Under the pieces are notes generated by a model. It was given only the letters and a program-made list of their open reading frames with translations. It searched no databases and was not told the origin of the DNA. 33,813 nt of DNA from Sphaeroforma arctica JP610 (Eukaryota). This document shows, piece by piece, positions 1,391 through 26,832 of the stretch. The position numbers and the translations under genes are program-made. The stretch covers positions 200,316-234,128 of the forward strand of contig NW_014040537.1 of NCBI RefSeq assembly GCF_001186125.1, written 5' to 3'. How positions within the stretch are numbered: position 1 is the first letter of the stretch; each line of letters starts with the position of its first letter.

Positions 1391-1430
1391 GGGGACAGCG
1401 GAGCAGGACGAACTCGAAATAATGTATACA

Positions 1431-1835
1431 GACGGCTGGCAGTTATTCCCTAGTTACTTTGAACAAGCGCAACAACACTTTGGACCGAATGACATAGATG
1501 TACTGGCGGACCCAACCAATGCTCAGCTTCCTCGGTTCTGGACGAAGGATGATGGGGGAAGGAGCGTTTGCCCACGACTGGTCGATAGTCGATGGATGGA
1601 TGAACCCGCCTTGGGAACAGATACACAGGATGTTACGCAAAATACGAGCCGACGGCGCACGGGCCACAGTATGTCTACCATGGGTACCAAGAGCACCATG
1701 GTTCGACCTGTTCAAGCAGTTATTGCAGACAGAACCGGTGCTGGTACCACGGACACCACACACGTTCCTCAAGTACGCTAAGTACGCATGTGGGAAGACA
1801 CCATGGGGTCATACCGTAGTAGCACGGGTGGGTCC
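1431..1835 (+). pseudogene. Dam-like (phage T1/HP1 Dam, PF05869-type) DNA amino-methyltransferase domain of Gypsy 1
   Basis: DGWQLFPSYFEQAQQHFGPNDIDVLADPTNAQLPRFWTKDD, then a +1 shift at G5 (1554-1558), then GAFAHDWSIVDGWMNPPW (NPPW 1603-1614)...ATVCLPWVPRAPWF...TFLK...GKTPWGHTVVARVG. Confidence 0.85.
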
Positions 1836-1954
1836 TCCCAATGGATTCAAACTGAACCCGCTGTTTTCACAGCGACTTGGTTATGCAGAACCAAAGCATA
1901 CAAAATATGTGATGTGCTTAGATACCGCGCGAGAAATCTCAGTGGCACTGGCAG

Positions 1955-2994: not shown

Positions 2995-3235
2995 TGTTTG
3001 GACAAAATCAGCACTGGCATCATTCTGCTCAGATACAAGTACAGTTCGGTGCACAGAGGAGGATGGTCAAATGACAGGTGTCATGAGGTGTCAAATAAGT
3101 TCACCAAAATAGGTCATGCATTTATGACTTACGTGTGACTACATATGCATAGGAGATGTACATATAAAACCCTCCGTAGAGGTGTAAATAGAGTCATTCT
3201 CTACTCAGTATAGTATGGTTCTATATGTTGAAACA
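2995..3235 (+). repeat. Copia 5' LTR
   Basis: 3163-3235 aligns without gaps to 17837-17909. Ends in CA and is followed by the PBS. The start at 2995 is inferred from TG, the short terminal inverted repeat and the TSD. Confidence 0.75.
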
Positions 3236-3304: not shown

Positions 3305-5043
3305 ATGCGACGTATTCAGAGACCATCGACGACATTCTTGATCGCAAGTTACCAAAATCACGCGTATACATACAATAACATATCATCACGGGTACTATAT
3401 AAATCATTACCATCCCCGCCTCCTACCCGTCTCTTAAAGATGCACACGAGTTTGCTGCCAGAAATTGGCCAGGTTATCCACGATACGAGGCTCTCGACAA
3501 ATATAATAGATCACTACACAGCATTCATAACCTATATCAGGAGTTCGGGTACAACCCACTCGGCATACCAGTATCAACTGGTCGTCTCCTAGCACACTTA
3601 TCCTGCGCAAGAGCAACAATCGCCCTTATTCGAGTTCGTGCAGACGCAAACGAAGACGAGACCAGAAAGTACAAACAAGGATTAGTAGACGAAGAGTACG
3701 CGCTCAATGAAGAACGTGATACTAAACGTGCGCCAATCTAGTACAAAGGAGAAATTCGCAAAATGCGAAGCTGAACTCAATAGTACACGGGCTCAACTCC
3801 GCGAAGCAGAGACATATATAGGCACAGACCAGAAACATAATCTCCGTGCTGCTGAACTGCAAGGTGAAGCGGATGGCTTACGTTCGGCGCTCAATGAGGC
3901 CAACGACCAAATTAACAATCTCAACATAGCCAACAGAGCTCCTAAACATATTGCTGAGAGATATGGCATCACTCTCATAAAGCTTGCACTCGATGTTCGG
4001 GATACACCAAAATACAAAGATGTTTACAATGGTGGGTAACTTGAGGGTTGGCGAAACTTCGGCAACTGGATCACTGGTTTACGCATGAGTTAGAACACTT
4101 TGGTGTACTTCATCGCTGTCATCCAATGTGCAACGAACGCTGCGCAGGAGGAGGATCAGACCCAGCAGCAGACTCGAAATGTCGTCGTATACTCATACAT
4201 TCTATCAGCGAACCCCTGCTCAACTCCGTGTACAAAAATTACATGATAAAAGCACCACACGTCTTCCTCGATCACATATGTGTCACCACCAATACTGGCA
4301 GTCATGGAAGATTCTAAGGCGTACTGCAGAACCTAACCAGCTTAAGTCAACGGGCTCGCCTGATACAACGCTACAAACTTTGGAGGAGATTCGCCAACAC
4401 TTGGTCGACGTCGGTGAGAACATCCCAGACTCTTCGATCACATTTGTGTCACCACCAATACTGGCAGTTATGGAAGATTCTAAGGCGCACTGCAGAACCT
4501 AACCAGCTTAAGTCAACGGGCTCGCCTGATACAACGCTACAAACTTTGGAGGAGATTTGCCAACACTTGGTCGACATCGGTGAGAACATCCCAGACAAGT
4601 ATCTAATTTGTGCCCTACTCTATAGTCTCGACGACAACTACAACATACTCCGTGTGGACATATTCGATCACGATCTGGATGCCCTCACGATCAACGAGAT
4701 CTATAAAAAGGTACTCAAGTTTGCAGGTGATATTCAGCTCGATTCTTCAACACCGGCATCCGGTCTAATGTCTATTAAATTCCCTGCCGAACGCAGTGAA
4801 AAATCCACAAACAATGATGCCAGTAATGGTAACCAGAATAATTTCACCTAACGACGCGAACGTCCCAACTGTTCTATATGTGGCAAAGCAGGACACATCA
4901 TCTTCGGATTCTCTGATTCAATCTGTCGTCGTTGCGGTTCAGCTGACCATAAGGGAAATAAATGCCCCATCGGCCGTTCTACACTATCATGCTCCAAATG
5001 CGGCAAAGGGGGCCACAATGATACAGCATGCGTGTCTAAGTGA
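3305..5043 (+). pseudogene. Copia Gag, fragmented, with a coiled-coil segment, UBN2-like core and three CCHC-type knuckles
   Basis: LEEICQHLVDIGENIPDKYLICALLYSLDDNY. After the TAA at 4849-4851: CSICGKAGH, CRRCGSADHKGNKC, CSKCGKGGHNDTAC. Start position uncertain. Confidence 0.8.
4265..4596 (+). repeat. 166-bp tandem duplication inside Copia gag
   Basis: 4265-4430 is nearly identical to 4431-4596. The period is not a multiple of 3, so it shifts the frame. Confidence 0.95.
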
Positions 5044-5293
5044 AGCCACGGGGTCCCTCGAGGCGATATTAGCACTAGCTACGATATAAATACGAAATGT
5101 TCCCAAGGACACTGATAAGTATACTTATACGGACACAATATAGTCCTACAGAACTCAAAAAGCAAAATTCCAAGGAAACATATATTCCAAATAAAGCGGA
5201 CACAAACACAGTCACAGAACACTATCGCATACAGAGTGCAATATACCAAGATGGGCCCACAGCACCACTATACTTCGCCGAGTCTCTCATTGA

Positions 5294-5540
5294 TGTAGAG
5301 TATGGAGAGTAGCTGAAAGGTACTACACAATAAGATATAATGGACCTCTTCTCAAGTACAGTTATCTCAGCTAGGAAAAGTCCCTAGTCTGAGAGAGCCG
5401 AACTGAGTCTTTCTACCGCTAATATTTCTAATGACTAATATCATAAATATTCCAATCCTAATTCCAAAACTCAGTATTTAATTATTTTGGGTTTTGGGAT
5501 TTGGATTGGCTTTTTGATAATCTGGTCCCTAGATGCTACT
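5294..5540 (-). repeat. Gypsy 2 3' LTR (247 bp)
   Basis: Direct repeat of 13677-14002 that lacks a 77-bp internal block. TGTAG...GCTACT, with the terminal CA mutated to CT. Confidence 0.93.
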
Positions 5541-5554
5541 GCCCCCCAACTCTG
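5541..5554 (-). promoter_or_regulatory. Polypurine tract of Gypsy 2
   Basis: Minus strand reads AGAGTTGGGGGGC immediately before the 3' LTR. Confidence 0.65.
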
Positions 5555-5914
5555 TGCTTCGTAGCCTGCGTAGGAGTAGAAAGTGACATCTTACAGTACT
5601 AGATTATCTAGAGGTTGGTGTTTGTATACAGGGAAAGACTTGTCCCTTAGGGGGCATAAGATGAAAAACCTGCCACCATTATCTATTACATATTACCGAT
5701 TAATTAAATTTATACTATAGCAGGAGTTCTCTAACACGCTCATCGGAGTCAGTCTTGACCGGTGCTCTCGGCTGATCTCAACCTGGCTCAGGAAAACGCA
5801 TCTCAACGGTGGCTCTACAGCTGAGGCTCTGGTCCTTGTCCTTCTGGTGTGTGGGGGGGAGCATGCTTCTAGGCGAGAAAGGTGGGAGTGTCCTGTGGTA
5901 TCAGTGAGACTTGC

Positions 5915-6388
5915 TTAGGTCCCCCGCCTCGTGCGCTGTCTGTGGATCGCTGATCTTTCATCAGTGCTCGTTGTCGCTGGCTTCTTTGGCCTGGACTGCG
6001 TTCTTTTACGTCTCCGGCGTTGACGGTATGTTGTAAAGACATCAGCATCTGCGATGTCTGATTCATGCGTCCAGGTACGCTCACCATATGTCCATTGCAG
6101 TAGGTACTCCTGGGATCCATCACCTCGGATGGACGGCCTGTTGTCAACTATCGAAGAGAACTGAGCCTCTTCTTTTGGTTGTACGTGATTGTTGGAAATA
6201 AATGCTTCCGGAGCACTGGCCCTTTTAACGAGGCCAAGTAGCTCATTAGTGATCGAGTCAGGATATTCGGGGGCTTTAGTCCCATTAAGGTTACAGACAA
6301 AATACCTGTTGCCCTCCCTGCATACCATTTTGTATGGTCCGCCATTTGGTGCTGTTAACTTGTTCATTTCACCTTGATAGCGAACCAT
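5915..6388 (-). pseudogene. Integrase C-terminus with GPY/F motif and chromodomain (about 6020-6160)
   Basis: KLTAPNGGPYKMV. FSSIVDNR...GSQEYLLQWTYGERTWTHESDI...FTTY matches the chromo pattern EYLxxW...TW. Basic tail RRRRKR. Confidence 0.82.
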
Positions 6389-6419
6389 GACAAGGTCCCC
6401 TTCCTGGAAGTTTACATAC

Positions 6420-7245
6420 TTCTTTTAGTATTTTCGATCGTATGCTGCGCGCATCTTCTCTTGATACTGTGCAACGTTGCTATTTAGTTGTGGCCTGATG
6501 GTTTCTTATAGATGTTGCAGTCGTTCTTCCCAAGATACTGTTCTACTGGATACGGTCACTGGCTCATTGTAGTCCGTGAGTTGATTCTGTCTGCGACCAA
6601 AGTACATATTAAAGCGCGGGGACTTGTGTCTTCTGGATGTATGCAGATTGTGGCCCATCTGTACGAATGGAAGTCGTGAACACCAGTTACCTGGATTCTG
6701 TTCTACGAATTTCCGTAGCAGTGGCATGAGGTCTCTGTGTGATCGTTCGTTCGCACTTAAAACTTCAGGTTGATACGGCCGAGAGACTAGGTGTTGCATT
6801 GGCACTTGTTCAACAACTTTTGAAAGTATGTTGTTAACATATTCAGTGCCTTGGTCGGTCTGTATGATTTGTGGGAATCCATGTTCACACATGATTGGTA
6901 CCAGCGTGCGTGCTATGGTAGCCGCTAATTTTTCCATCATTGGACGCAAAATGACATATGATGAGTGTACATCAAGCCATACTAACACATCTGTGTGTCC
7001 TCTGTCCTCTGTTAGAATCCAATAGTGGACCTATGGTGTCCACTTGGACTCTGTCGCCGGGATACGCGGCTGTGATTGATTGTAAGGGGTGAAATACATT
7101 TTTGTGTAAAATTATTTTTTTGAGACATGGTATACATCCGTCAATGAACTTGTGTACATGTTGTTGGATATCAACCCAATCATGGCCATCTGTTTGCAAC
7201 TTGTGTACTGTTTCCTCAGGAGTGTAATGCCCCTAATTGTGGTAT
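6420..7245 (-). pseudogene. DDE integrase of Gypsy 2, with frameshifts and stops
   Basis: YHN*GH...CIPC, DRVQVDTIGPL, IQTDQGTEY, SANERSH. Confidence 0.92.
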
Positions 7246-7375
7246 TTCTCAATGATGTTGACATGTGTCTCATATTCTGTTGCCTGTGGTGCGTCTCCAG
7301 AGTGAACTGGTTCTGACGCTGCAACGTGTATTGCAGGTTGTTCCCGCGTTGAATCGAAGTATGGAGACTTAGCTC

Positions 7376-7766
7376 CTATCTTTGCAACTAATGCGACACC
7401 CCATTGGGTCTTGCCGCAAGCCTTCTTGCCCTCTTTGAGGAACGTATTGTTTGTGTTTTCCACTAGCATCGGGTCTTCTTCTACTAAAGACAAGAACTTT
7501 AGAATCCACGAGGCATTGGGGTAACATGGTACACATATCGTGATGCTGGTTGCCTCTTCAATGACTTTGTCAAGGATATCAGGTATAAGTTCCCATGGTG
7601 GATTCGCCCATGCATTAACTTCCTGCGCCCACTTTTGTTGTAGCGCATTCTGTTCTTTGGTGTAATATTTATCTGTGTGCGCATTGTGTGCCAATGCAAA
7701 CAGGTCTACTGTGAACTTCCCAAACCTTCGTTCCGCCTCTTAATAGAATCTGGGATGTAACATCCA
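7376..7766 (-). pseudogene. Dam-like DNA amino-methyltransferase domain of Gypsy 2
   Basis: WMLHPRFY*EAERRFGKFTVDLFALAHNAHTDKYYTKEQNALQQKWAQEVNAWANPPW (NPPW 7593-7604)...ITICVPCYPNASW...TFLKEG...GKTQWGVALVAKIG. In frame with the RNase H end and the integrase start. Confidence 0.87.
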
Positions 7767-7884
7767 AACTATAGCCGATATGACTATGGACATGTTTGTT
7801 TCCAAGGTGGTGTACTCTTGGCTATTGTGTGTTGCCTCATTCGCTTTTTGTAATACTTTTGACTCTTTAATACTAAAGGTATCT

Positions 7885-8330
7885 TCATAGAGACGCGACA
7901 ACATGTCTGCCATCTGGTTGTCCTTGCCTGGGACATGTATGATGGAGAATGGTGGTGGAACGTTTACGCTATCCATTTGGCTAGCATTGGGTGTAAAGTC
8001 TGTTGACTGTTCATTTGCGTGAGCGCTTTGTGATCTGTCCACAGTGTTATGTCCCCCCTCTTTACTGTATTCGGATAAATGTTCCAGGCTGTATACCAGT
8101 GCTAGTAGTTCTTTGGTATTTGTGCCATAGTGTTGATGTGCTGGGTTCAAGCCTTTTGATAAGTAAATAATGTATCGTCTAACACTATCGATGACTTGAA
8201 ATAAACACCCTCTTATGCCATAGTCACTAGCATCGTTCATAATTTGAAACGGTACCCCATCAACAGGGTATGCTAGCGTCGCTGAACAGGCGATGGCATC
8301 TTTGAGTTCTTCCCACTTCTTGATTAGTTA
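7885..8330 (-). pseudogene. RNase H (Ty3 type) of Gypsy 2
   Basis: YPVDGVPFQIMNDASDYGI, YGTNTKELLALV, HVPGKDNQMADMLSR. Confidence 0.92.
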
Positions 8331-9130
8331 CGGTGTCCATAACATGGATATGTTCTGTTTCATTTTTCCCTTCATTAGGTTCCGAAAGTGTTTCGTTGTG
8401 TGAGCAAAGTTGGGGACATGGTCTTGCATGTAATTTGCTAATCCCACTGCTTTGTGCAGATCTCTTTTTGTTCTGGGTAGTGGCCAATCCAATATTCTTT
8501 TCTGTTTCTCAGGATCTGCTTTGAGTCCCTTTATGGTGACTTTCACCCCAAGAATGTTGACCACTTTGACCGCAAAGGTACACTTGTTGTGATTGAGTCG
8601 GAAGTTTGCGCTATTCAGTCGCTTGATTACTTCACGAACTGGTTTGCCGTGTTCTTTTTCTGTAAGACTCGCAATGACTATGTCATATATATACACTTGC
8701 ACTCCTTTGATATCTATGAGCAGATTCACCATGACTCTCTGGAATTGTGCTGTGAGTGAGTGTAGTCCAAACGGCGCGGACTTGAATACCTTGTAGGTCG
8801 TGCAACACTTCCTTTATTTTTGGTAACACAAAATTGTCCTGATCGATCTCCCGTAAGTCTAGACATGTCCTGACTTTCTTAAATAGACCCGTTTGGTCAT
8901 GTTCACCTGTTGATAACAACGGCAGGTTTACCGTTGTGGGCTTGTCGCGTTTGTATATTTGGCCATCTTTAAGCCATCGTTGCACATTCTCGTCCGTTTG
9001 CGGAATGTATTTGTGCGGAACAAAGTTGAGTTTAGCGTGCCCCATTTGTCTGACGTTGATTTTATTTGCAGGTACCGTGACTGTGGAGCCTGGTAGGTTG
9101 CAGTGAACATCAGGAGGTATATTCGCAATG
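8328..9130 (-). pseudogene. Reverse transcriptase of Gypsy 2, decayed
   Basis: KKVRTCLDLREI, APFGL, VYIYDIVI (YxDD mutated), LNHNKCTF, VGLANY. Confidence 0.92.
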
Positions 9131-9259
9131 GTATTCAGGAGGTCTGTAAGTGACTCTCTGAAACCTTCTTGTTCATGCTCTTGGTCTTCTTCATGTGGTG
9201 TGAGAAGTGATTCCCATTTTACATCTGTCGGTATGAGTGTGTTGATTAACCCTGCTATG

Positions 9260-9565
9260 TATAAACCTATGTATGGTAAAATGTCCATACCTTGAAGTAT
9301 TTGTCTTTTTGTCTGGCAAGTCCAATACTTCAAAGCACTGAGAGGTCTTCATCCATCCATAGTTATTGTCACAAAATTATGTTGATCCAGTGCGTTGTAT
9401 TCTTGCATCTGTTTGTGCTAGTTGTATATACCCAGGTTACACTCTAACAGACAGGTATAGTTCTGAAACTACACTTTTGTCCATGCATGAGCGTTGTGCC
9501 CCTGAGTCTACTAGTACATTGTATGTATTGCCATTGATTTGTATATCAATGTGTAAACGTTGGTC
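9260..9565 (-). pseudogene. Aspartic protease of Gypsy 2 (not in the ORF track)
   Basis: Manual translation gives RLHIDIQINGNTYNVLVDSGAQRSCMD...ILQGMDIL, with internal stops. Confidence 0.88.
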
Positions 9566-9875
9566 TCGTGGTGCGGGAAGTAAAGATAAAGGTTGATAAT
9601 TTATATCATTTGCATTTATTTACAACGTTTCTTCATCTGTAAATACATTGAGTCTGCCAGTCAGGTTAATCATGTTCGCTTCCGCCCACCAGTGTTTTCA
9701 GNNNNNNNNNNNNNNNNNNNNNNNNNNNNNNNNNNNNNNNNNNNNNNNNNNNNNNNNNNNNNNNNNNNNNNNNNNNNNNNNNNNNNNNNNNNNNNNNNNN
9801 NNNNNNNNNNNNNNNNNNNNNNNNNNNNNNNNNNNNNNNNNNNNNNNNNNNNNNNNNNNNNNNNNNNNNNNNNNN

Positions 9876-10958
9876 TAGTGTCACAGACGCCGTTCTTATG
9901 TGTGTCTCAGTCATAGTACAAAACTTGGTATGTTCTATGTCAAACAGATGTCCTTCACTTCCATCAGGTTGCTTGTCTCCTTTGATTAAGAGGTCCACTA
10001 TTGATTTTAGTACATAGTACTTAAGTGCTAGGTACCATTGTACTTTGAGGATTTGGAAGTGTATGGGTTCCTTGTATGAGCTGCGGTATCCCTCCTGTAG
10101 CATCGCTATTGTCTTGTGCACATGCTCTGTGCGCACTTCGACGTTCATCTTCTTATTCTGCATGTCATTGAGAAACTTCTCCAATAGATAGTCTACTGGG
10201 TGTGATCTGAGTCGATCAATAATGATTCTATTGAACTGTTCGGGATCAGTGAAGTGCCTAGTTGTTTGTGTCTCAGAGTCTCTTATGTTTTTGACTACTG
10301 CTTTGGTTTTCTCCGTTTCATCAGTGGAATCTAATAGTCTTCTCACTAGTGCTGGATACTGACACAATGGCATTGACGTAGCTAAGAATAGATCACTACA
10401 TTGTGTAGTGAGCTCTATGATGTCCTCACAATTTTCCAATCTAAAGAAGCTATCCTTCGGCATCTTTGGAAATTCTGAGGTCTTGAGTAATTTCTTAAGA
10501 AATGATTCGTTATCGGATCGCCTAAACGTGAACGCATGAGCTCTAGCTCACTAATGTACAGACTGATTTGGATAAGTTTGTCTTCCTCATCATCACCGCA
10601 ATCGTCGATCGCTTGGCCAAATCGTCGTTTGAGCTCCGCATCTACTAGTGGCTGCGACGCTGGCTGTTGATCATGTATGCCTACTCTCATTTTGTGCAGA
10701 GTTAGTATGGGCACCGGTGCTGTTTGTTCCAATTTGGATACAAACCGTCTCACCAGAACATGATTGCCGTGACAGATACTCTTGTCTATGTCTAGACGCA
10801 TTGCTGACGCTGCGATGGGTACCCCCGCCGGTGTAGGCTGACCCGAACTAATGCCTGGACTTGCCTCCCCCATTGGGCTGACTCTAACGTTACCCGCGCC
10901 TTCACTACCTTCCCCCACTATTGTACACGCTTGTTCTGGTTGCTGTTGGCATTTTCAT
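9876..10958 (-). pseudogene. Gag of Gypsy 2, frameshifted, 3' part in the N gap
   Basis: Two overlapping minus-strand ORFs (10415-10918, 9666-10463) directly upstream of the protease. Assigned by position only. Confidence 0.65.
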
Positions 10959-11508
10959 AAGTCTGTGTTGTTGTGTGGGTGTTAGTGGATTATTACTAAA
11001 GACTCTGGTTATGTTTTGTGCGAAAGTGCGCACTTCACCCATCCCTCTTTAGTAATAAGTCAACATTTTGTTTTGTTTTGGATTTATGTTACTTACTTTT
11101 TATGTTGTTGTTGCTTTGCTGCACTTCCGCAGGAAGTGTTTACCTTGCTGTATGGTTCGGTAGCTTGTTGCGTTGTCCCCTATATTTATGAGGGGTGAAA
11201 TTGGTGTTTGTTAGTCAAGCTTATTCCGTCACCTGTGACGTCACTTGTGCGTATTTAGTCACGTGAGAACGTATTGTCACTAGTGTTATTTCGTCGTGTG
11301 AGAAATTATTTTCTCATGTGATCTTAATGAGATGTTCGGTCTTAGTGACGTCACCTGGAGGAGTTCGGTCCTGGTGATGTCACCTAAGAATTCCGGTCCC
11401 ATCTCTGACTGTGATTCAGTCACTTGTGTAAGTTCGGTCCTATTTCGAACCGTGATCTTTACCTTATTGTTTGTGGCGGGCCGCAAGGTTCGAACAGGCT
11501 CTTGTCGT

Positions 11509-11701
11509 GCTTGATTTAGGCGTGGTTGTACCCTTGTTTCTGTGATCAATAGGTGTGATTTCTTCCTGGTGAGTGTATGTGTCTCGAAGATCACTTAGAT
11601 GTTTTGTGTTAGGCTTGATTTAGACGTGGTTGTACCCTTATTCCTGAGATCAATGGGTGTGATTGCTTCTTGCTGAATGTATATGTCTCGAAGATCACTT
11701 A
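11509..11701. repeat. Tandem repeat, period 104 bp, in the Gypsy 2 leader
   Basis: GCTTGATTTAG...CTCGAAGATCACTTA at 11509-11597 and 11613-11701. Confidence 0.9.
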
Positions 11702-13676
11702 TATAGAATGCGTTACGCCTAGACACGGCTGACACGGCTCTTAGATGTCGGATCTAGCGTGTGCTAGTCTGTGTGTTGCGTGTCTCAATTGCTGACATTA
11801 CTGTTGGGTGTTTGTTGCACTCGTGTATCACATATGATTTGGCTGTGTGGCCTTGTGCATGTGCTTCCTTTTATTTTTGAACTAATTGTTCTTGTGTTAT
11901 TGACGAATGTTTTATTCTTGCCTGATTGTCGTGATTTGACTGATATACGTTAGTATTATCTTGTCGATGTCCCCATTCCTCAATTTGACACAAAATGTGT
12001 CAGGAATGTTTTTGGGTTATCAGTTATGGTTCTAATGTTTTGTTGTTGATCACTAGAATATTCGTTCTCGAGTGTTTTCGCATTTGTATTTGTCGTGCTA
12101 TCGTGATATAGTATTTGTCTTGTTTGATTTCTAATAATGTCCTACTCATAAACTGATGACCATCAATGTAATTGATACTCCTAATTTGAATCGTTCTGAT
12201 TCAGGAGTCCATCTGCTTGTGTCTTTGTTTACTCGTCTATTTGTATGTTTATTATTATCTTATAATCACCTTAGTTATTCAATACTACAGAAATACATGT
12301 GGCTCAGCCTGTGTCCCCGGGTTTGATCAGTGCCTCTTTTTGTTGAATATGATCGATTTGAGGACCCTTTTTGTGACTTGTGGCTGTGCGTCTATGTATT
12401 ATTTGTGTGGTGTAAACGCTTGTTGCACTAGTTATTGTTAAGTGACATGTAAAACAGTATAATGCTACTTTTCCAATGTAATCGATTGTCAGATCCTCTG
12501 ATATTTGAAAATCCTCTGGATGATTTGTGGCGTTATGTCTCTCTATTCTTTGTATGGTGCCTTTACTCAGCGTTTGTTATTTTGGGTGCTTTCCCACGTT
12601 ATGCAGGTCTATGGTTTGGATCACTTGTCTAACATTTAGCGCTTTAGTACCCAGTATGTGCTTCCTTGATCAGATCGCTATGATTCCTGACCTATGTGTG
12701 CTCATGCGTTGTGAATTTGTATATACGACAACTTGTTTCAGTTGGTTGTTGTAGCTACTTATATGTTTGTGATTGTAAGTCACTGTAGATGGCTGTTGTT
12801 TGTGTGTGGCAGTCCATCGATCTGATTTATCTCGTGTCTCTGTGAGATTGAAATTTAATGTTGGTGCAATATTCGATATCTGCGATCTTTACTCTATGCG
12901 GTGTGTTTTACAAGGTGTGAATGCTTTGTTATGGTTTGTGTGTGCCGATTGTGCGTATATGCATTTGTCTATGCTTTCATAGTGTGTATGTATACGTTTG
13001 TTTATGTATTCATAGTTGTTCTGAATTGGCGGTGTTGTTTGTTCTGTGGCTGCTGCTATTGCTTTGTATATGAAAACTGAGTAAAATAGCTAGTGTCTTT
13101 TTAGTGCACATTGCATAAGGTTATTTTCTTGTTCGAAAACCTATAAAAATCTTCTAGTTGATGAAATGATCACTGTGACGGCTTATGCCTTTTTCACTGT
13201 TTTAGCCTTCCTATCTAGCAACTCTTCACTGAATCGCGTTACACTGAGATACCCTCTTCCACAGTATATGTTTGTGAACACGTTATTATCACCTGTGTAT
13301 CCTGAACACCATATTCATATACGTTACAGTTGTATACGCGCTTATTTGCCTTGCTTGTCTTTCTTCTTCGTATCGCAAGTTGCACGTTTCACTTCTTGTT
13401 TCTTCGTGTACACCCTGTTATTAATTTCTGTTTGTTGGAAGTCTTCAGTCCTGTTCTCCTTTTCGATCCGAGTCTTCTCTGCTTCCTTGTTGACACTTCT
13501 CTGCTGGTCCAGGCCTCTTCTCTCTGTTATTGTTACTACTCGTTGGATAGTTCTAATGAAGTTTTGGTTTTTGAGTTGGCCTTGCCAAAGCACCTGATGG
13601 GTTAATTCCCACTTGCTTTCCTCTTAATCGTAGAGTGTAAGTTGTTAGACTTATCTAGTAAGGATATTGTAAAAAA

Positions 13677-14002
13677 TGTAGAGTATGAAGAGTAGCTGAA
13701 AAGAACGAGACAATAGGATACAGTAAACCTCTTCTCAAGTACAGTTATCTCAGCTAGGAAAAGTCCCTAGTCTGAGAGAGCCGAACTGAGTCTTAATTTG
13801 TGTTTTCACTAGACTCGGGATTTACTCGAGTATTTATCTCACACGCGGGAGTCCCGGTGTATCTGACCGGTTCTACCGCTATTATTTCTGATGACTCTAA
13901 TATCAGAAATATTCCAATCCTAATTCCAAAACTCAGTATTTGATTATTCTGGGTTTTAGGATTTGTATTGGCTTTTTGATAATCTGGTCCCTATATGCTA
14001 CA
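13677..14002 (-). repeat. Gypsy 2 5' LTR (326 bp)
   Basis: TGTAG...CTACA terminal inverted repeat. Direct repeat of 5294-5540. Confidence 0.95.
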
Positions 14003-14320
14003 TTGGTTCAGGCGCTATGATTCATATATTTTACACTACCAATAGTGATACAAATATCCAACGCGGCAACTTCATAGTCGAATTTCCGGACAAGTCTCAA
14101 AACGCTGAAAGAGCGGGGCACGCTTCCGGGATTAGGCCAACTACTTATCATGCCACAAGCAACGCAAAACATACTATCTGTCCGATTAATGCAACGCAGC
14201 GGTTTCGACGTCAACTTCCCAGCGCAGGCAAACGATACGCTACCTACAGAGTGCCGCATCACAGATCGAACAGGCCAGAAGCATACCATCCCAGACGTGA
14301 GCGGACAATACAAGATTTCC
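14003..14320 (+). pseudogene. Copia aspartic protease, 3' part (5' part ends at 5293)
   Basis: Removing Gypsy 2 and one TSD copy restores ESLIDSGAMIHIF. Later YHA/MP..TQNILSVRLM corresponds to the Copia V.YVP...NLLSV motif. Confidence 0.85.
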
Positions 14321-14419
14321 ACTTGTACGACCCGCACCCTAGCCGAATCCACGCAAAACGAGGCCAACCCTTGCGCAAAAAAAAACATCGACATATATGT
14401 AGCTAAAAGCGAGAACACA

Positions 14420-14845
14420 GACAACGGGAAGTTCCACCCTGATCTCGTTCAGAAACACGTCGTCGAGCCATTCGGCGCAGTATATATTGATTTACTTGCC
14501 TGTATAAACAATGCACAAGTTGCAAACTATTGCAGTTTAGTGGAGGGTGCACCACTTTACGATGTCTATAAACAGTCCTGGAACCAAGTGAGAGTCCATC
14601 TATATGGGAACATACCGTTCACCAAAAAGCATTGGTCTGCCACACTCAACAACCTGGAAGCAGAAAGCGGCATAGTTACTGTCGTATTTCCTTTAGCTCC
14701 CAGAAACAAGTGCTACCAACGAACACTGAAACAGTTACACTCACAGGTGGAAGGTGTACGCATGACACCTGCTACATTTCTTCGTAACGGCTCCGAAGTG
14801 GTCGGTCTACCAACGTGGAGATACATATGTGTTGCCCGATTAGGT
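14420..14845 (+). CDS. Dam-like DNA amino-methyltransferase domain of the Copia element (inside open frame 14150-15148)
   Basis: DNGKFHPDLVQKHVVEPFGAVYIDLLACINNAQVANYCS...DVYKQSWNQVRVHLYGNIPF (14609-14620)...VTVVFPLAPRNKCY...TFLRNG..VGLPTWRYICVARLG. Collinear with both Gypsy MTases. Confidence 0.8.
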
Positions 14846-14899
14846 AATACCAAACACGCCGTACCTCTGACAGCTAATCTGCTCACAGCCCAAGACGGT

Positions 14900-15720
14900 G
14901 TCCTCGCCCACCTTACTGATGAGTGCTTTTGCTCTACCTGTGTATCCTGCAAGACGCGTCGTCGGCTCATTTCAAACAAACTCAAGGATCCTGAGATTCG
15001 GCCACCACCGGGTACTGTATTTCATTTTGGCCTCGAAATTGGCTTGACACCCTCAGCAACAGGTTGCACTTCTAACATCAAATTTGTTGACGCCAACAGT
15101 GCAGTGCTCTTTTCTTACCCCACTCGAGTCCGAGGATGGGGCCGCTGAGACACTCGACATGTTTTATACTTGACTCGGGAAAGAGAAACTCGCCAAGCTT
15201 GAGGAGTTGAAGTGCGATAGAGGAGGGGAGTTCAACTCTAAATAATCTAAGGCAATCAATACTGTGGAACACGTCAAAGTCCCATACACATCTACTAACT
15301 CGCCAGCACTTCATGGTTTGGTGGAGCGTATGAATGAGGTAATCGTGGATTTGATGCGTGACTTTCTAGACCGTTCGGGTCAGCCTGAAGAGACCTGGCG
15401 AGAGGCCTTACGCTAGGCAACACTAACACAAAATATCAGTCGCAACGATCGGAATCCTGATAGTAAATCCGCTTGGGATATCTTTTACGGCGAAATCCCT
15501 GACAAACGACTTAAACACATGCACGTATATGGCTGCCAAGTGGCCTTCATCAACCAGGACCCCGAGAACAAACTAGACGACAGAGCCACACTTGGGGGGT
15601 ATTTTAGGCACGACACCGACTCTAAATAATACTATGGTGAGTGTAGAATTTTCAGCGTCAAGCCGGGCCGTGTATGCCATTCTAGATATGTCAAATTCAA
15701 CGAACGCGTATTTCCCACTT
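14900..15720 (+). pseudogene. Copia integrase, decayed
   Basis: CSTCVSCKTRR, FVDANS, LKCDRGGEF, SPALHGLVERMN, TWREAL, HMHVYGC, KLDDRA, by manual translation across stops. Confidence 0.92.
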
Positions 15721-16699: not shown

Positions 16700-17520
16700 A
16701 CCCCTTGTAAATCCAATAAAAAGGCTCTCCGTGGCGGTGATGCTGCTCCGTGGCGCAAAGCAATCGAACGTGCGTTAAGCAGCCTTAATAAGTCGGGCAC
16801 CTACGACTTGCTCAAACCGGACGAAATACCAGATGACGCCTTCATTATAGCTAGCAAGTGGGTATTCAATGTAAAAATGATCGACGGGCTGGTGGATAAA
16901 TAAAAAGCACCGATTTGCTTCACGCAAACCCAAGGCGTTAACTACGACGAGACATTTGCTCCTAGTGTTCACACGAGACACTCAGAACGGTATCAGCGGT
17001 GTTTGCAGCGCTAACCTCGACGAATCAACTTATATACGTCCACCGAAAGGTCCTAGCGCCGTTGGTATACGGCTTAAAACAGTCAGGACGGCTCTGGCAT
17101 GCCCTAATCAAATCCAAGCTTCTAGGCATGGGGTTCAACCAGAGTGCATCGGATACTTGCATGTTCATCATAGCCGAAGCGGACTTTTCGTGCATCGTCT
17201 TACTCTACGTTGACAACTTTATTGTTTCCGGCAAGCGGGAATGCGATGTACAACACATCAAGGCCCCACTTCAGAAAGAGGTTAGTTGTAAGGATGCGTG
17301 TACTCACAGCGGAAGATTCTATAAGCCTCGTGCAGGATAAATACGTGACTGAAGCGCTAGCGACATTCGATCTCAGCGACGCACATACAGCCCCAACTCC
17401 AGCCACACTGAATGTAGTATACGGCTCATGAACGCCACCAATGCTCCTACCGCGAGTTGATCGGAACCCTTCAGTATAATCTTTCGATGCTCACTAGGCC
17501 TGATATCTCATCTCCGTTGA
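16700..17520 (+). pseudogene. Copia reverse transcriptase, decayed with deletions
   Basis: WRKAIERALSSL, SKWVFNVK, QTQGVNYDETFAP, VYGLKQSGRLWH, LLYVDNF (YVDD mutated), TRPDIS. Confidence 0.93.
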
Positions 17521-17545
17521 ACTTACACAGAACGCACCTACCCCG

Positions 17546-17830
17546 TTGCACTGCGACAATCAGTCGGCCATACACGTCATTGACGACACAGGCACAAATA
17601 AGCACCTAAAACATGTAGATATCCGTATCCACCACATACGGGATCTTAAAGACCAGGGTGTCATCTGCACTACGTATGTCAAGACACTTGACAATACAGC
17701 TGACATATTAACCAATAACACAGCTCGGCCAACACATTCTCGCCATACCAACTCAATGCTCTCAGCCTTTCCCAATCCTCTAACCAAAGCAACCGGCAAC
17801 AATCTAAGGAAGAAACAGGCCGCTACATGA
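17546..17830 (+). pseudogene. Copia RNase H C-terminal part
   Basis: HCDNQSAI, KHVDIRIHHIRD, YVKTLDNTADILT. Confidence 0.93.
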
Positions 17831-17836
17831 GCTCAC

Positions 17837-17909
17837 TATAAAATCATCCATAGAGGTGTAAATAAAGTCACTCTCCACTTATTATATTATGGTTCTATAT
17901 GTTTAAACA
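17837..17909 (+). repeat. Copia 3' LTR remnant (3' 73 bp)
   Basis: Aligns to 3163-3235. The upstream part of the LTR and the PPT are missing. Confidence 0.85.
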
Positions 17910-18861: not shown

Positions 18862-19088
18862 TACAATATACGTACATATGGTATAGCTCTCATAGCCGTT
18901 GTAGTGGTTCGGGGAAGATCGATGGGGAGAAGTGAACAGTAAATTCCCGTTAAGCTGGGGCCAAGTGAGTCGACGATGGAGGATATGCGCTGGGTCATTT
19001 CAGGCCGGCGCTTACAAAAACCCGACACCATCGACTTTGCCGCGTATTCGATTGCTGACCTACTAAGTAGTGTACCCACCTCTGTGGT
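18862..19088 (-). repeat. Dispersed ~225-bp repeat, inverted relative to 25878-26106
   Basis: Both copies translate to EVGTLLSRS..EY...SMV..FC...PE.TQ.IS.IVD.LGPS...MRAIPYV. Confidence 0.85.
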
Positions 19089-19479
19089 ACGGATCAGGTC
19101 TGCACCGTGTAGTGTCGTGGAATGGGTTAGTGCAGAGTACGAAATGCCGAGTAGGACCAGGTTATCCGTCATAATTCTTGAGGAGCAAGGTTGGGGGTGA
19201 ACCGATGTCGCACCAGACCACGGATGCACTCGGTATGTGCTGGTTGGCCTAAATTGGAAGTATCATAGGCGAAACCAACAGGTGCGATGACTTGGTTTGG
19301 ACCGGAATTTGGAAGTAGTACCTCGACAGCGTGATTAGCCGGGGTATAGGAACATCTGTTGATGTGTCAGAGACGGGTGTAGAAACGAGGGCTATTCTAC
19401 AGGCCGGAGAAAGGATCCAAGGTGTTCGTGGAGGGTCCAGATACCGTGGAAATTGTGGCGCTCCCGTGATTGCTGGGAG

Positions 19480-21424
19480 GTCAGGTCCAATGGAATGCAA
19501 TTTTGGGCCTACCAGGATGCGTCGGATCAATTGTTGGATGTAGGCAAAGTGGCTGGTGGTGAATTTGAGGCCACCGTGACAGAAAGGGCAGAGACAGCCG
19601 TCGGTGCGGTAGTCGAGCAATGTGAACATGTACGTATTTGTTGCAGTTATAGCACGGAACCGGATCGTTGTAGGCTCGAAGCAGCGATTGAAGCTGTCGT
19701 GCCTGACTTTGTCCCAATTTGAGGTGGGCGGTTTGCCCACGACCAATTGGCAGCAGTACTAGCGGCGGGCCATTGCCGTGATCTTCTTGTTGGACCAGCG
19801 TTTCGTTGAGTTCTTTCGAACGTCGTCACAGCGTCGGCGGAGGGCTACATGGTCGAGTGCACGCCCGTGGTTTTTTATACAGTTTTAAGGTGGGCATAGA
19901 TACTGTACGGAAAGCGCAGTGATAGTTTGTCGTGGGTTCTAGGGCATAGATACTGTACGAGCAGCGCAGGATGGTTTGTCGTGGGTAGGCGGTTTGCGTC
20001 AAATTGGTGAGTGGGGTTGTACTGACCATTGAGTCGAGGTGTATTCCCAGGCAACCTCCGAGGTAGTCCGCAAATGGTCGCGTGGGGAGCAGGCCACAAA
20101 GGTGGAGTGAGTGTGTTTGTATGAATTTTTGGAAACCTAGGATATGTAGTGCCCGTGAGATGGCTGCTGAGTTATAGCGCTCAAACAGGGGGTCCAGTGT
20201 ACCCTTTCATATAGGCGGAGCCCAGACAATAATGTTCAGGCCATATGTAGCCGTGGATAGGATGAATGTTCTGAACAGCACCAGCCGGTTGCGGGGATGC
20301 CACCAGCTGAAGCCATAGAAGCCATAGGTGCGGAAGGAGGGGATACCCAGAAACAATGCTGCAACCAGAGATTCCATATGGTTGGCGAATTTGATCCCTG
20401 GTATTCCGTGGGAGAGTGAAAACCCCATGTATCTGGAGAGTTTAGGCTTGGTATGTGTGGATGCCATATTTAGGGAAAGGTAACGTGTGTTCCAAGGGGC
20501 ATCTGCAAGTGTCGGCGTGATAAGCTCACCATTTATACAGAGGCTTGGCGCCGCGTGTCGCAAGGCGGTAGATCGTACTCGGGGTTTGATGACAACCTGT
20601 TCAAGTCAAGGTCAAATTTACGTCCACAAGCATCAATGTCGTCTAGGAAGGGCTGAACTGGAGCCGGTTGGGGGGCTTGGATCTGTGTTGTGTCGTCGAC
20701 AAATAAATAAAAGCGGAAGAGCTTGAGCCGGAATTGTGGTAGCGTGACAGCTAATGAATTTATGTAAACAATAAAGAGCTGGATTGAGCTTTGTAGAATA
20801 CCATTCTTTCTATGGAATAGAGGCGAAAGCGTGCCGCGGTATGTGTCTCGGAAACCCTCTTAAATAGCGCGCGGGGGCAGTTGATCCAGTTTCGGGCATT
20901 CCAGCGTGGCGCATAGGCGCAGGAAAGCAACTTTGTTGCATGCCTATTGTCCAGACAGACGTCGTTCCACTCCTCTTTCGACTGTGTTTCAGATTCCATG
21001 GCGGCGAGTGCTTGGGTATGGTAAGAGTATCGTGATTTAAAGCCAACTTGGGTAGGCAGCAGACTCGTAATTAACTTGAGGAAACACTTCTCAATATCTG
21101 TTTTTTTATGCACTGTCACTGTCATGAGGCTGCAGTTTAGGGCTGCAGAAAAGATCACATACCCGCCTTCAATAGCTCAGTGAATGCTTCGGCAAGGAGT
21201 CTAATCAGTGGGCTATTGGCGTCAGGGCGTCCTAGTGTCCTGCTTTCGGCGGAGCGCCCCACTGCGGCCTTCAGATGAAGGATGTGTATTTTGTCAGGGT
21301 CAGTCCCTTCACTGGGACAGCGTAGTATAGCCTCCATTACATCGTAAGGGCGTATGGTGGGAGTTACATCTGGTGAGGGTTTGATATCCGGTGGGACCAT
21401 GTACTGTAAGATTCGGTCTATCAA
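19480..21424 (-). pseudogene. Decayed non-LTR (LINE-like) retrotransposon RT and C-terminal region
   Basis: IRPYDVMEAI...DPDKIHILHLK, TQVGFK, LFVDD (FVDD at 20692-20703), YMG, RLVLFRTFILSTATYG, CPFC..TTSH finger. No endonuclease seen. Confidence 0.72.
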
Positions 21425-24329: not shown

Positions 24330-24957
24330 AGACATTGTCTACATACGACACCTGTCACTATAAAACTATTAACGCCCGAGGCCCCGAGCCCTACTACAGG
24401 AAACTAATACTAGAGTATTCCTACGTATTTATATGAACCGGGTGAGGGGGTTTTTTTTGTTGTTGGATTCATTGCGGTTACATAATGAAATCAGAACAGG
24501 ACAAAACCCCTTGGATATGAAATTTACAACAGACCGGGACAAAAGCAAATTCAACATTGTTGAACTACAGTGCAATTGTGCAAACCAAACGATCATATTT
24601 TACATGGCCTTCTTTTCTTCTTTATAATTTAATAGGAGGCTATGAAACGATATTTTTTTACTAAGGATCCACGAATTCACGCTCACAGCCTCACAGGTTT
24701 AACAGACCATTGGCTCTCTTTAGTCTGAGGCGTTGTATTCGGTTTCACATGTGATAGGTTAAGATTGTGTACCGAAAAATGATACTTGACTGTTGTATCG
24801 GTAAAGATCTTTTTTGCAAAGTGTACACGTAAAATAGTTCGGTACTTGGGCGAAAGTTGCCTTACCAGGGCCCATAAATATCGACCCTACCTTTGCTAAT
24901 GAACCGGATGCGGTATTGAACACGGGCTCGGGCGTTAATAAATTATAGTGACGGGTG
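24330..24957. mobile_element. MITE-like element, copy A
   Basis: Terminal inverted repeats CACCTGTCACTATAAAACTATTAACGCCCGAG (24349) and CTCGGGCGTTAATAAATTATAGTGACGGGTG (24957). Non-coding interior. Confidence 0.78.
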
Positions 24958-25850
24958 ACCTGCTGAACCACACCAATTAAAGGCTGATGATCCATCTCTA
25001 CTATAAGCACCTCGTACGATATCTTAATCAAACCCGCGAGCTTCAAAAACCCATATGCTAGCGCTATCAACTCTCTATCTGTCGGAGACAAATTAACATG
25101 GAAGTCTATCTTGGAACTCACAAAGCCCACAGGAAGCCATTCTCCATCTCTTCTCACAAAAAATCAAGCACCTATACCCGAATTCGACGCATCTGTCTGA
25201 AACCTAAGTTGCTCCTCTTGTCTAGGTTCTACCAAGACTGTCTTCGCCTGAAAAATCTTCCGAGCTGACTGAAAAGCCTTCTCCTGCTCAGGACCCCACT
25301 GGAACCGTACCTTCGTCTTAGGTCAAATCACTAATCGGAGCCAACACATTTGAGAAATTCGGAACGTATCTTGCCCACCATCCAAACTACTGATACCACG
25401 ACCTGACTTCGGCCTTGGTTTTGGGCCTGGGCATATCTAATATTGCCTGAAGCTTTGCTTCACTTATCATCGAGCCCTTATCTGTAACCTCTCGACCCAT
25501 CACAACTATAGAATCTTCTCGATACGTGAACTTACATTTTGACAGCCGCAACTGTATCCCTTTTGCTCAAAGCGCCTGATCATCTCCACAATACCATCCC
25601 AATGCTCAACTGGATCATCCGAACCCAACGTGGTATTATCAATGTATGTCTTAATTCCTTTAATTGCCTCCAATGTCTCATACATTAGTTGTTGGAACAC
25701 AAATGATGCTTCCTTCAAACCAAACGGCATCCCAATAAATTGGAATCTCTCTTCCCAGGGCATCAAAAATACAGTAACCCCTCGACTACCAGGCTCTATC
25801 ATTAACTGTCCAAAACCATATCCAGCGTCCACTCCTTCATAACTAGCCGT
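24958..25850 (-). pseudogene. Fragment of a third Ty3/Gypsy RT-RNase H
   Basis: DAGYGFGQL, MPFGLKEA, TYIDNT, FQWGPEQEKAF, QTDASNSGIGA, RELIAL, MDHQPL. Truncated by MITE copy A. Confidence 0.9.
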
Positions 25851-25877
25851 CGCCGCATGTCATAATTCAGGTGTCCT

Positions 25878-26106
25878 ACCACAGAGGTGGGTACTCTACT
25901 TAGTAGGTCAGTAAGCGAATATATGGAACATTCGATGGTAACAGTGTTTTGTCAACACCTGCCCGAATTGACTCAGCACATATCTTACATTGTCGACGCA
26001 CTTGGCCCAAGCTTTAAACGGGAATTTACTGACCACTTCTTCCCATCAATCTTTCCTGAACCACTACAGCGACTATGAGAGCCATACCATATGTTCATAC
26101 ATTGTA
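25878..26106 (+). repeat. Dispersed ~225-bp repeat, second copy
   Basis: Reverse-complement similarity to 18862-19088. Confidence 0.85.
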
Positions 26107-26225
26107 TCATACACACTTGCCATTTTTGAAATTAAATAATTTTGACACGGGCTCGGGCGTTAATAATTTTATAGTGTCGGGCTTTATAGACAAAGTTCTA
26201 ACTAGTGAGTATGTACCAACGCAGC

Positions 26226-26832
26226 GACCCGACACCCGTGACTATAAATTTATTAACGCCCGAGCCCGTGTTCAATACCGCATCCGGTTCATTAGCAAAG
26301 GTAGGGTCGATATTTATGGGCCCTGGTAAGGCAACTTTCGCCCAAGTACCGAACTATTTTACGTGTACACTTTGCAAAAAAGATCTTTACCGATACAACA
26401 GTCAAGTATCATTTTTCGGTACACAATCTTAACCTATCACATGTGAAACCGAATACAACGCCTCAGACTAAAGAGAGCCAATGGTCTGTTAAACCTGTGA
26501 GGCTGTGAGCGTGAATTCGTGGATCCTTAGTAAAAAAATATCGTTTCATAGCCTCCTATTAAATTATAAAGAAGAAAAGAAGGCCATGTAAAATATGATC
26601 GTTTGGTTTGCACAATTGCACTGTAGTTCAACAAAGTTTTGGTTTTGTCCCGTTCTGTTGAATTTCAGGTCCAAGGGATTTTGTCCTGTTCTGTGATTTT
26701 ATTAACCGCGAAATGTTTTTTAGACGAACATTTTATTCAAAATAATTTCACTTGGTTCATAAATTTACATAGAAATACTAGGGCTCGGACGTTTATAATT
26801 TTATAGTGATGGGTGTCGTTTAGGCAAAGTCT
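26226..26832. mobile_element. MITE-like element, copy B (inverted relative to A)
   Basis: Same TIR family. 26247-26634 is the reverse complement of 24557-24944. An extra solo TIR lies at about 26143-26198. Confidence 0.78.

What the first reader, a model, noticed from the sequence alone, without database searches (positions are those of the whole stretch)
14150..15148. Copia element with a methyltransferase between protease and integrase, carrying a variant NIPF catalytic motif
Seen: a 332-codon open frame runs from the protease end through the MTase-like domain into the integrase zinc finger (CSTC). The rest of this element is heavily broken. Motif IV reads NIPF, versus NPPW in the two Gypsy copies. 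The usual pre-integrase WHxRLGH motif is not recognisable; VARLGN sits roughly there. Established: canonical Copia pol is PR-IN-RT-RH with no extra enzyme at this position. Inference: this is a new Copia architecture. NIPF is either decay in this copy or a family-level change in activity.
Basis: partly seen in the sequence, partly recalled or inferred. Interest (0 to 1): 0.85.

Follow-up and report, generated by a model that had tools for sequence, protein, structure and literature searches.

The report
Copia integrase with built-in adenine methyltransferase
A dead copy of a Copia-type jumping gene carries a predicted adenine-methylating domain that, in related elements, sits inside the zinc finger of the integrase, so the enzyme would travel with the integration machinery and likely mark new insertions with a DNA tag linked to active genes.

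Summary
A 332-codon frame runs from the protease end through a Dam-like N6-adenine methyltransferase domain (NIPF at 14609-14620) into the Copia integrase. Homology to Gypsy/DIRS Dam domains is solid (53.5 bits; best of 500 shuffles 5.4). NIPF is family-level, not decay: both readable sister copies, a 47%-identical Sphaeroforma arctica protein and one Gypsy Dam share it, and it fits the motif IV of active Erm/KsgA-type enzymes.

In relatives the integrase His pair lies before it and the Cys pair after it, so it sits inside the HHCC zinc finger. VARLGN is the last Dam strand. Here the His pair is probably hidden by compensating frameshifts.

The element is one dead Copia split by a nested Gypsy. 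Gypsy/DIRS Dam elements are described (bioRxiv, May 2026); that text never mentions Copia, and my searches found no Copia case. Activity is untested; other TE Dams were inactive in E. coli. The scan earlier noted Gypsy+Dam and, unchecked, Copia+cytosine-methyltransferase on other DNA, but no Copia+Dam.

The parts
3163..3235 (+). Copia 5' LTR (alignable part; ends in CA), followed by GGTTATGG, a Copia-type primer-binding site (label recalled)
   Evidence: 86% identical to 17837-17909 over 73 nt; sequence
3403..5100 (+). Copia gag, broken, with a 166-bp tandem duplication (4265-4596) and CCHC knuckles
   Evidence: PF14223 E 8.4e-6, under cutoff; zf-CCHC E 3.5e-6 at 4852-5037; D4
5270..5293 (+). 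Start of the Copia protease, cut at its catalytic motif; TTGA at 5290-5293 is the left target-site copy of the nested insertion
5294..14002 (-). Nested Gypsy B element (8.7 kb) with LTRs 5294-~5540 and 13677-14002 (TGTAG...CTACA, 92% identical); pol order RT-RH-Dam-IN-chromo-like
   Evidence: the LTR lies at far higher contig depth than the Copia pol
7353..7820 (-). Gypsy B Dam domain, motif IV NPPW, between RNase H and integrase
   Evidence: PF05869 E 1.3e-14; P0007 hits 7820-7365 at E 3e-18
14003..14320 (+). Rest of the Copia protease, frameshifted; TTGG at 14003-14006 is the right target-site copy (one mismatch)
   Evidence: 22/51 identity to P0002 over the C-terminal part
14342..14371 (+). 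Expected site of the integrase His pair; probably out of frame between two compensating single-base indels (inferred)
   Evidence: ten codons between the flanking Leu and Cys, as in P0002; an indel pair puts His/Gly/His at the homolog's positions, found in 10 of 3000 shuffles; a sister contig breaks alignment at 14319-14379
14420..14850 (+). Dam-like N6-adenine methyltransferase domain: motif-I-like DLLA at 14489-14500 (DLFA or DLFS in relatives), motif IV NIPF at 14609-14620, last strand VARLG to about 14845
   Evidence: fold of homolog P0007
14930..14941 (+). Cys pair (CSTC) of the integrase zinc finger, downstream of the Dam domain
   Evidence: aligns with CRVC of P0007 and CNPC of P0003
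15000..15730 (+). Integrase core and SH3 domain, frameshifted, with stops; the first catalytic Asp reads Gly
   Evidence: tblastn 58-64% to P0002 and P0003; PF25597 E 1.7e-8
16700..17450 (+). Copia reverse transcriptase, broken
   Evidence: RVT_2 E 1.2e-11 and E 0.036
17530..17740 (+). Copia RNase H end (CDNQSAI...KHVDIRIHHIRD; motif label recalled, no Pfam hit)
17837..17909 (+). Copia 3' LTR (alignable part), after a purine-rich tract
1400..1850 (+). Gypsy A Dam domain, frameshifted, NPPW; neighbouring element used for comparison

Best explanation
This is a dead copy of a Copia LTR retrotransposon family whose integrase carries a Dam-like, predicted N6-adenine methyltransferase inserted between the His pair and the Cys pair of its zinc finger (seen directly in relatives, inferred in this copy), so the enzyme would stay part of mature integrase and likely put 6mA on the cDNA or integration site, which host AMT1 would then maintain. 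Shown: Copia identity, homology to Gypsy/DIRS Dam, family-level retention, NIPF in sister copies, and His-Dam-Cys order in relatives. Inferred: capture from an LTR (Gypsy) Dam in the same host lineage; that protease does not release the domain, because cutting it out would split the zinc finger; catalytic activity; a DNA substrate; hand-over to AMT1 (the preprint's model for Gypsy, itself untested).
For: P0007 holds FHRSEGH (His 155, 160), Dam 184-335 and CRVCVEGK from 355 in one protein. P0002 (WHDRLGH) and P0005 (HHARFGH) have the His pair just before Dam, where PF13976 hits weakly (E 0.16, 0.064). P0003 has CxxCxxGK just after it. Dam is conserved about as well as its neighbours: against P0002, protease 22/51, Dam N-half 36/65, integrase start 25/44. 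Sister contigs in 4 of 4 runs cover the domain at about 80-90% identity and bridge Dam into the Cys pair. The motif IV Asn is kept in 5 of 5 Copia rows that cover it. The P0007 domain folds at pLDDT 76-96 and matches N6-adenine methyltransferases: KsgA Z 9.6, rmsd 3.2, 130 aligned; PCIF1 Z 9.4, 3.3, 135; ErmC' Z 8.9, 3.2, 126; E. coli Dam Z 8.2, 2.8, 109. (A/S/N)(L/I/V)P(Y/F) is a motif IV of active N6-methyltransferases (PMC6787224, passage). Gypsy DAM-LTR copies in S. arctica are 6mA-enriched and more expressed (preprint).
Against: No activity data exist for this domain, and DIRS, DAM-LTR and adintovirus Dams gave no 6mA in dam-deficient E. coli. Motif IV is unstable among Copia rows (NIPF, NIPF, NI-, NQP, NPIW), which could mean relaxed catalysis. 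The nearest solved folds act on RNA, though the top rows are tied within 1 Z and E. coli Dam is close behind. The zinc-finger halves are low-confidence in the model (pLDDT under 50). In this copy the His pair rests on a post-hoc indel test, and a plain six-frame profile scan did not single it out. The relatives are fragmentary gene predictions without RT context, and the host is inferred.
Confidence: 0.45

Rival explanations
1. The integrase-borne domain methylates RNA (genomic RNA, primer tRNA or the RNA strand of the hybrid) inside the particle, possibly twice (m6,6A), rather than the integrated DNA.
For: NIPF fits the consensus given for dimethylating N6-methyltransferases. The top structural matches are PCIF1, KsgA, Dim1 and Erm. 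Other TE Dams failed on E. coli DNA, and the authors raise hybrid substrates.
Against: The same paper notes that PikR1 is reported as monomethylating despite NVPF, so the motif is not diagnostic. The fold rows are tied with DNA enzymes. By sequence the domain belongs with Dam-like TE domains, not Erm/KsgA.
Confidence: 0.2
2. The domain is kept as a non-catalytic adenine or 6mA binder that steers integration towards or away from host 6mA chromatin, as chromodomains do in Gypsy.
For: Motif IV drifts across Copia rows. Fish-type DIRS rows read AFPP or AYPP, without the Asn. The E. coli assay of other TE Dams was negative. The domain is attached to integrase.
Against: The Asn and the DLF(A/S) motif are kept in the Copia relatives, and NIPF is a known active form.
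Confidence: 0.2
3. The domain is a tolerated passenger, captured by template switching from a co-resident Gypsy into a loop of integrase and now drifting.
For: Copia examples were found only in S. arctica proteins (6 of 7 hits) and in this window's organism; two metagenome scans found none.
Against: It is retained across families only 23-55% identical to each other, with conservation like that of protease and integrase.
Confidence: 0.1
4. The segment is a secondary insertion or assembly chimera in this one copy, not part of the Copia family.
For: The window is a nest of elements with N gaps, and two Gypsy Dams lie nearby.
Against: It is only 24-28% identical to the neighbouring Gypsy Dams. It is in frame with protease and integrase. 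Independent relatives have the same junctions. No joint skipping the domain was among the 15 of 24 joints shown.
Confidence: 0.03

Closest known systems
DAM-LTR retrotransposons, ichthyosporean lineage (Fernandez-Moreno et al., bioRxiv 10.64898/2026.05.21.726589; whole main text read; supplements not seen)
   Same: Dam-like domain of the same TE family inside pol of an LTR element, next to the integrase N-terminus; likely the same host group. Window Gypsy A and B (RT-RH-Dam-IN, NPPW) fit this class.
   Different: All LTR cases in the text are Ty3/Gypsy-like; 'copia' and 'Ty1' occur 0 times and classification used RVT_1. In Gypsy, Dam precedes an intact HHCC (P0010: Dam ends at 818, His from 854, Cys from 889). 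Here it interrupts the HHCC, and the triplet is NIP, not NPP.
DIRS1-type methyltransferase (MT) domain (as described in PMC5890265, passages read)
   Same: Homologous Dam-like domain in a retroelement pol; DIRS rows score 52-88 bits on the A3 profile.
   Different: DIRS elements use a tyrosine recombinase and carry MT after RNase H; their domains form the other side of the tree (88/91).
Retrotransposon-borne cytosine methyltransferases (SymbioLINE-Dnmt, SymbioDIRS-Dnmt3, KnitGypsy-Dnmt3; PMC5890265, passages)
   Same: A methyltransferase captured into a retroelement and proposed to mark cDNA.
   Different: C5-cytosine chemistry; that paper says Symbiodinium Copia lack any DNMT domain.
KsgA/Dim1/Erm rRNA N6-dimethylases and PCIF1/CAPAM
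   Same: Closest solved folds; the N-I-P-aromatic motif IV matches ErmC' NIPY.
   Different: 7-14% identity, no sequence-level hit, and a different context; the resemblance is fold plus a four-residue motif.
Canonical Ty1/Copia pol (PR-IN-RT-RH)
   Same: Domain order, RVT_2 RT, SH3, short LTRs.
   Different: About 195 residues between His pair and Cys pair in P0007, against about 31 in Gypsy P0010. A screen of 4,811 plant Copia consensuses found no gained domain (PMC9289625, passages).

Membership tests
Ty1/Copia | Order gag-PR-IN-RT-RH | tested here: met
Ty1/Copia | Copia-type RT (RVT_2, PF07727) | tested here: met
   E 1.2e-11, 45.1 bits, cutoff 31.6
Ty1/Copia | Direct LTRs at both ends | tested here: met
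   3163-3235 and 17837-17909, 86% over 73 nt; 5' edges not defined
Ty1/Copia | Target-site duplication around the element | tested here: inconclusive
   5' LTR edge unclear; none recognised by eye
Ty1/Copia | HHCC zinc finger (GAG-pre-integrase) | tested here: inconclusive
   Cys pair present; His pair inferred out of frame here, plain in P0002, P0005, P0007; PF13976 only E 0.064-0.16
TE-borne Dam-like N6-adenine methyltransferase | Sequence homology to Gypsy/DIRS Dam domains | tested here: met
   53.5 bits against a best shuffle of 5.4
TE-borne Dam-like N6-adenine methyltransferase | Rossmann amino-methyltransferase fold | tested here: met
   shown for homolog P0007 with the window domain in its alignment; the window's own model was unusable, pLDDT 39.6
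TE-borne Dam-like N6-adenine methyltransferase | Methyltransferase activity on adenine | not testable with these tools
   needs an assay
Pfam PF05869 (Dam) | Curated score cutoff 28.1 bits | tested here: not met
   window 11.7 bits; Copia relatives 16.9-25.5 bits; not filed as a PF05869 member
DAM-LTR lineages of the 2026 preprint | Dam domain inside an LTR retrotransposon | tested here: met
DAM-LTR lineages of the 2026 preprint | Ty3/Gypsy-like RT (RVT_1) and organisation | tested here: not met
   RVT_2, integrase before RT; not filed in those lineages
DAM-LTR lineages of the 2026 preprint | Asn-Pro-Pro catalytic triplet | tested here: not met
   Asn-Ile-Pro here, in sisters and in P0001
DAM-LTR lineages of the 2026 preprint | Host with AMT1; 6mA-enriched, expressed copies | not testable with these tools
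   no genome held; no methylome
KsgA/Erm dimethylases (PF00398) | Motif IV (A/S/N)(L/I/V)P(Y/F) | tested here: met
   NIPF; consensus from PMC6787224
KsgA/Erm dimethylases (PF00398) | Sequence-level membership | tested here: not met
   no such Pfam or PDB sequence hit

The most novel reading that the evidence does not exclude
A Copia lineage has built an adenine methyltransferase into the zinc finger of its integrase, giving a single integrase-methylase that writes 6mA at the moment and place of integration, so each new copy lands pre-marked for the host's active-chromatin pathway. It would be the first Dam in the Copia superfamily, acquired from co-resident Gypsy elements, perhaps twice.
Probability: 0.3. 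Interest if true: 0.82.

Novelty: new variant of a known kind. Interest (0 to 1): 0.58.

Why it matters
It extends Dam capture to a second LTR superfamily that is thought to gain domains rarely, and points to domain traffic from Gypsy to Copia within one host lineage. The insertion site is informative: a domain inside the HHCC finger should stay on mature integrase, which narrows when and where TE-borne Dams can act and suggests why isolated domains may have been silent in E. coli. It also bears on the preprint's analysis: these domains score below Pfam's cutoff and go with RVT_2, so a Pfam/RVT_1 screen would miss them or class them as orphans, and such families may sit among its 'non-DAM LTR' controls (inference).

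Tried and rejected
No own genome was held, so there is no copy census or dN/dS. The word-index search of Dam residues 95-245 against longer proteins gave 0 of 110 candidates. Alignment A1 at near lengths returned only P0002 and P0007 among 5025 candidates. Alignment A3 at longer lengths gave 13 hits among 7996 scored, none with RVT_2 in its precomputed domains; this is weak evidence, and no full-length Copia-Dam polyprotein was found. Metagenome scans: 0 of 220 and 0 of 66 pattern matches confirmed. Viral-contig scans could not start. ESM Atlas: no usable hit for the window protein; not answered for P0007. PDB sequence searches gave nothing significant. The fold of the window ORF was unusable and was not searched. 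Folding the two zinc-finger halves of P0007 with Zn gave no answer (score 0.07, mark 0.34). No integrase N-terminal domain was among the fold rows shown, but the Dam domain fills those lists. A six-frame His-pair profile scan did not pick out the window site (6.7 against a top of 17.7 in 67,008 positions). One origin versus two for Copia Dam is unresolved (AU p 0.19; Gypsy as one clade p 0.056); P0003 and P0004 halves were left out of the tree. No RNA holder was listed. Exact look-ups of the RGS frame and two TE frames found nothing, so the host is not confirmed. Rejected: VARLGN as the pre-integrase motif; the repeat pair 5294-5540/13677-14002 as a Copia duplication (they are the LTRs of the nested Gypsy). 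Literature searches with no Copia-Dam report: (listings and abstract starts); two searches returned no papers. The preprint's supplements could not be seen and may list Copia or orphan Dams. RepBase, GyDB and REXdb could not be scanned.

Full report
OBSERVATION. The frame is real: 14078-15148 stop to stop, 332 codons from the ATG at 14150. It is the longest open stretch of a pol region that is otherwise full of stops and frameshifts. It holds the C-terminal half of a protease, a Dam-like domain (about 14420-14850, NIPF at 14609-14620), CSTC at 14930-14941 and the start of the integrase core. Pfam gives nothing for the whole ORF and Dam at only E 0.2 for the excised domain. Homology is nonetheless clear. 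It aligns with both neighbouring Gypsy Dam domains (E 3e-7 and 1e-8), one of which is a full PF05869 hit (E 1.3e-14). An HMM built from 12 non-Copia domains scores it at 53.5 bits; the best of 500 shuffles scored 5.4.

THE ELEMENT. It is one Copia copy in two halves. The 5' LTR end (3163-3235), a GGTTATGG primer site (label recalled), gag and the start of protease run to 5293. A Gypsy element of 8.7 kb (5294-14002, minus strand, LTRs 92% identical, 4-bp target duplication TTGA/TTGG) has inserted into the protease catalytic motif. The rest of protease, integrase with SH3 (E 1.7e-8), RVT_2 RT (E 1.2e-11), RNase H and the 3' LTR (17837-17909, 86% to the 5' copy) follow. This copy is dead. Six of the seven proteins found in the 1.84-billion representative search are predicted proteins of the ichthyosporean Sphaeroforma arctica, at 28-48% identity. 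The host is therefore probably a Sphaeroforma-like protist, which I could not confirm with a host gene.

FAMILY-LEVEL, NOT AN INSERTION INTO THIS COPY. Contigs of other copies at about 80-90% identity cover the domain in 4 of 4 runs laid, and one bridges Dam into the Cys pair; none of the 15 of 24 joints shown skips the domain. The S. arctica proteins have the same junctions at much greater distance. Against P0002 the protease part is 22/51 identical, the Dam N-half 36/65 and the integrase start 25/44, so the domain is conserved like its neighbours.

NIPF. Nine contigs per run overlap the motif, eight shown. In run X9, two are the window copy. An 83%-identical sister reads A-N-I-P-F directly, with only a synonymous change inside the motif. 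A closer sister shares its contig ends with the window copy across the motif, so it is identical there (inferred from assembly-graph logic). A further group of three contigs has Ala before the motif, but the motif lies too near contig ends to be read. P0001 (47% identical) reads GNIPF and an unrelated chromodomain Gypsy, P0006, reads ANIPF; P0005 reads NQP and P0007 NPIW. So NIPF is inherited. PMC6787224 (one passage read) gives NIPY for ErmC' and the consensus (A/S/N)(L/I/V)P(Y/F) for dimethylating N6-methyltransferases, but notes a reported monomethylase with NVPF. The motif is compatible with catalysis and does not identify the substrate. From recall, the second residue of motif IV contributes through its backbone carbonyl, which would explain the tolerance. 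This copy does show probable decay elsewhere: DLLA for DLFA, and Gly where relatives have Trp or Tyr at the domain start.

WHERE THE DOMAIN SITS. The His pair is before the domain: WHDRLGH in P0002, HHARFGH in P0005, FHRSEGH in P0007, with weak PF13976 matches there (E 0.16, 0.064). The Cys pair is after it: CRVCVEGK in P0007, CNPCFVGK in P0003, CSTC here. P0007 has all three parts in one chain: His 155/160, Dam 184-335, Cys from 355. In Gypsy P0010 the domain ends before an intact finger. In the window copy in-frame identity collapses to 1-2 of 15 exactly at the His pair. The spacing between the flanking Leu and Cys is ten codons, as in P0002, and a pair of compensating single-base indels places His, Gly and His at the homolog's positions, which 10 of 3000 shuffles allow. 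That test is post hoc, and a plain profile scan did not single the site out, so the His pair in this copy is probable, not shown.

STRUCTURE. The window's own model failed (pLDDT 39.6). With P0007 as target and 18 rows, residues 191-350 fold at pLDDT 76-96, while the two finger halves are predicted helical at under 50. Foldseek ranks PCIF1 first (E 7e-5), then KsgA and Dim1. VIA-align gives KsgA Z 9.6 (rmsd 3.2, 130 aligned), PCIF1 9.4 (3.3, 135), ErmE 9.1, ErmC' 8.9, E. coli Dam 8.2 (2.8, 109) and M.TaqI 8.1. This supports an N6-adenine amino-methyltransferase fold for the family, not a substrate. The SAM pocket of the window copy itself was not modelled.

ORIGIN. In a 19-row tree the Copia domains group with LTR (Gypsy) domains apart from DIRS (88/91, not starred). 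Four Copia rows join the NIPF-bearing Gypsy P0006 (86/95), and P0007 stands apart on a long branch. A single Copia clade is not rejected (AU p 0.19). Capture from a Gypsy donor is the simplest reading, but the tree is unrooted, small and not firmly supported.

MECHANISM. Best reading (0.45): the domain cannot be cut out without splitting the zinc finger, so it stays on mature integrase, reaches the cDNA ends and target DNA, and writes 6mA that host AMT1 maintains. The architecture is shown; every functional step is inferred. Rivals are RNA or hybrid methylation in the particle (0.2), a non-catalytic targeting module (0.2), a passenger (0.1) and an artefact (0.03). The main result against catalysis on DNA is the preprint's negative E. 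coli assay for other TE Dams.

WHAT IS KNOWN. Dam-like domains in DIRS are long known (PMC5890265, passages). bioRxiv 10.64898/2026.05.21.726589 (whole main text read; supplements not seen) reports them in Ty3/Gypsy LTR elements, including Sphaeroforma arctica, with more 6mA and expression. Gypsy A and B in this window fit that class. The text has no occurrence of 'copia' or 'Ty1' and classifies by RVT_1. Searches (listings and abstract starts) showed no Copia-Dam report; the library lacks most subscription papers and TE databases. A plant screen found no domain gain in Copia (PMC9289625, passages). PMC9386465 and PMC11673190 were seen as passages only and add nothing decisive. Earlier notes of this scan describe Copia with a cytosine methyltransferase between protease and integrase in other genomes (unchecked) and none with Dam.

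VERDICT. A real feature and a new variant of a known kind: a Copia-type element with a Dam-like domain inside the integrase zinc finger, so far seen only in Sphaeroforma-type sequences. Interest 0.58; 0.82 if integrase-coupled 6mA writing is shown (probability 0.3).

Noticed in passing
window 5294-14002 (-): Gypsy B is a DAM-LTR with a weak chromo-like C-terminus (PF00385 E 0.03), although the preprint says the ichthyosporean lineage lacks chromodomains. Full-length relatives P0010 and P0011 exist.
   Followed up: partly
window 13677-14002: The Gypsy B LTR lies at roughly ten- to several-hundred-fold higher summed contig depth than the Copia pol and has many loose ends, suggesting many solo LTRs.
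   Followed up: no
window 610-3150 (+): Gypsy A appears to run PR, RNase H, Dam, integrase with no RVT_1 hit in the frames scanned between protease and RNase H: possibly an internally deleted copy.
   Followed up: no
P0005 residues 249-254; P0007 residues 187-190: A Cys-x-x sits right at the Dam start (CNDY, CEAW), and PF13976 runs up to it in P0005: the insertion may have landed in, and partly duplicated, the Cys pair.
   Followed up: partly
P0013 (unnamed ENA record): Gag knuckle, Gypsy-type protease, then Dam (NPPW): a Dam between protease and the downstream pol, a further position.
   Followed up: no
P0014-P0021: These DIRS-type Dam domains read AFPP or AYPP at motif IV, without the Asn.
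   Followed up: no
window 24483-26704: Inverted repeats, 392 nt 100% complementary (96% over 478), enclose Gypsy RT/RNase H fragments; part of the interior is also inverted at 18862-19089.
   Followed up: no
window 27367-28630 (-): RGS-domain frame (PF00615 E 1.8e-8) whose 5' part is duplicated about 350 bases upstream (D3, D7).
   Followed up: no
window 19250-21200 (-): Broken frames that look like a non-LTR reverse transcriptase (label by eye, not scanned).
   Followed up: no
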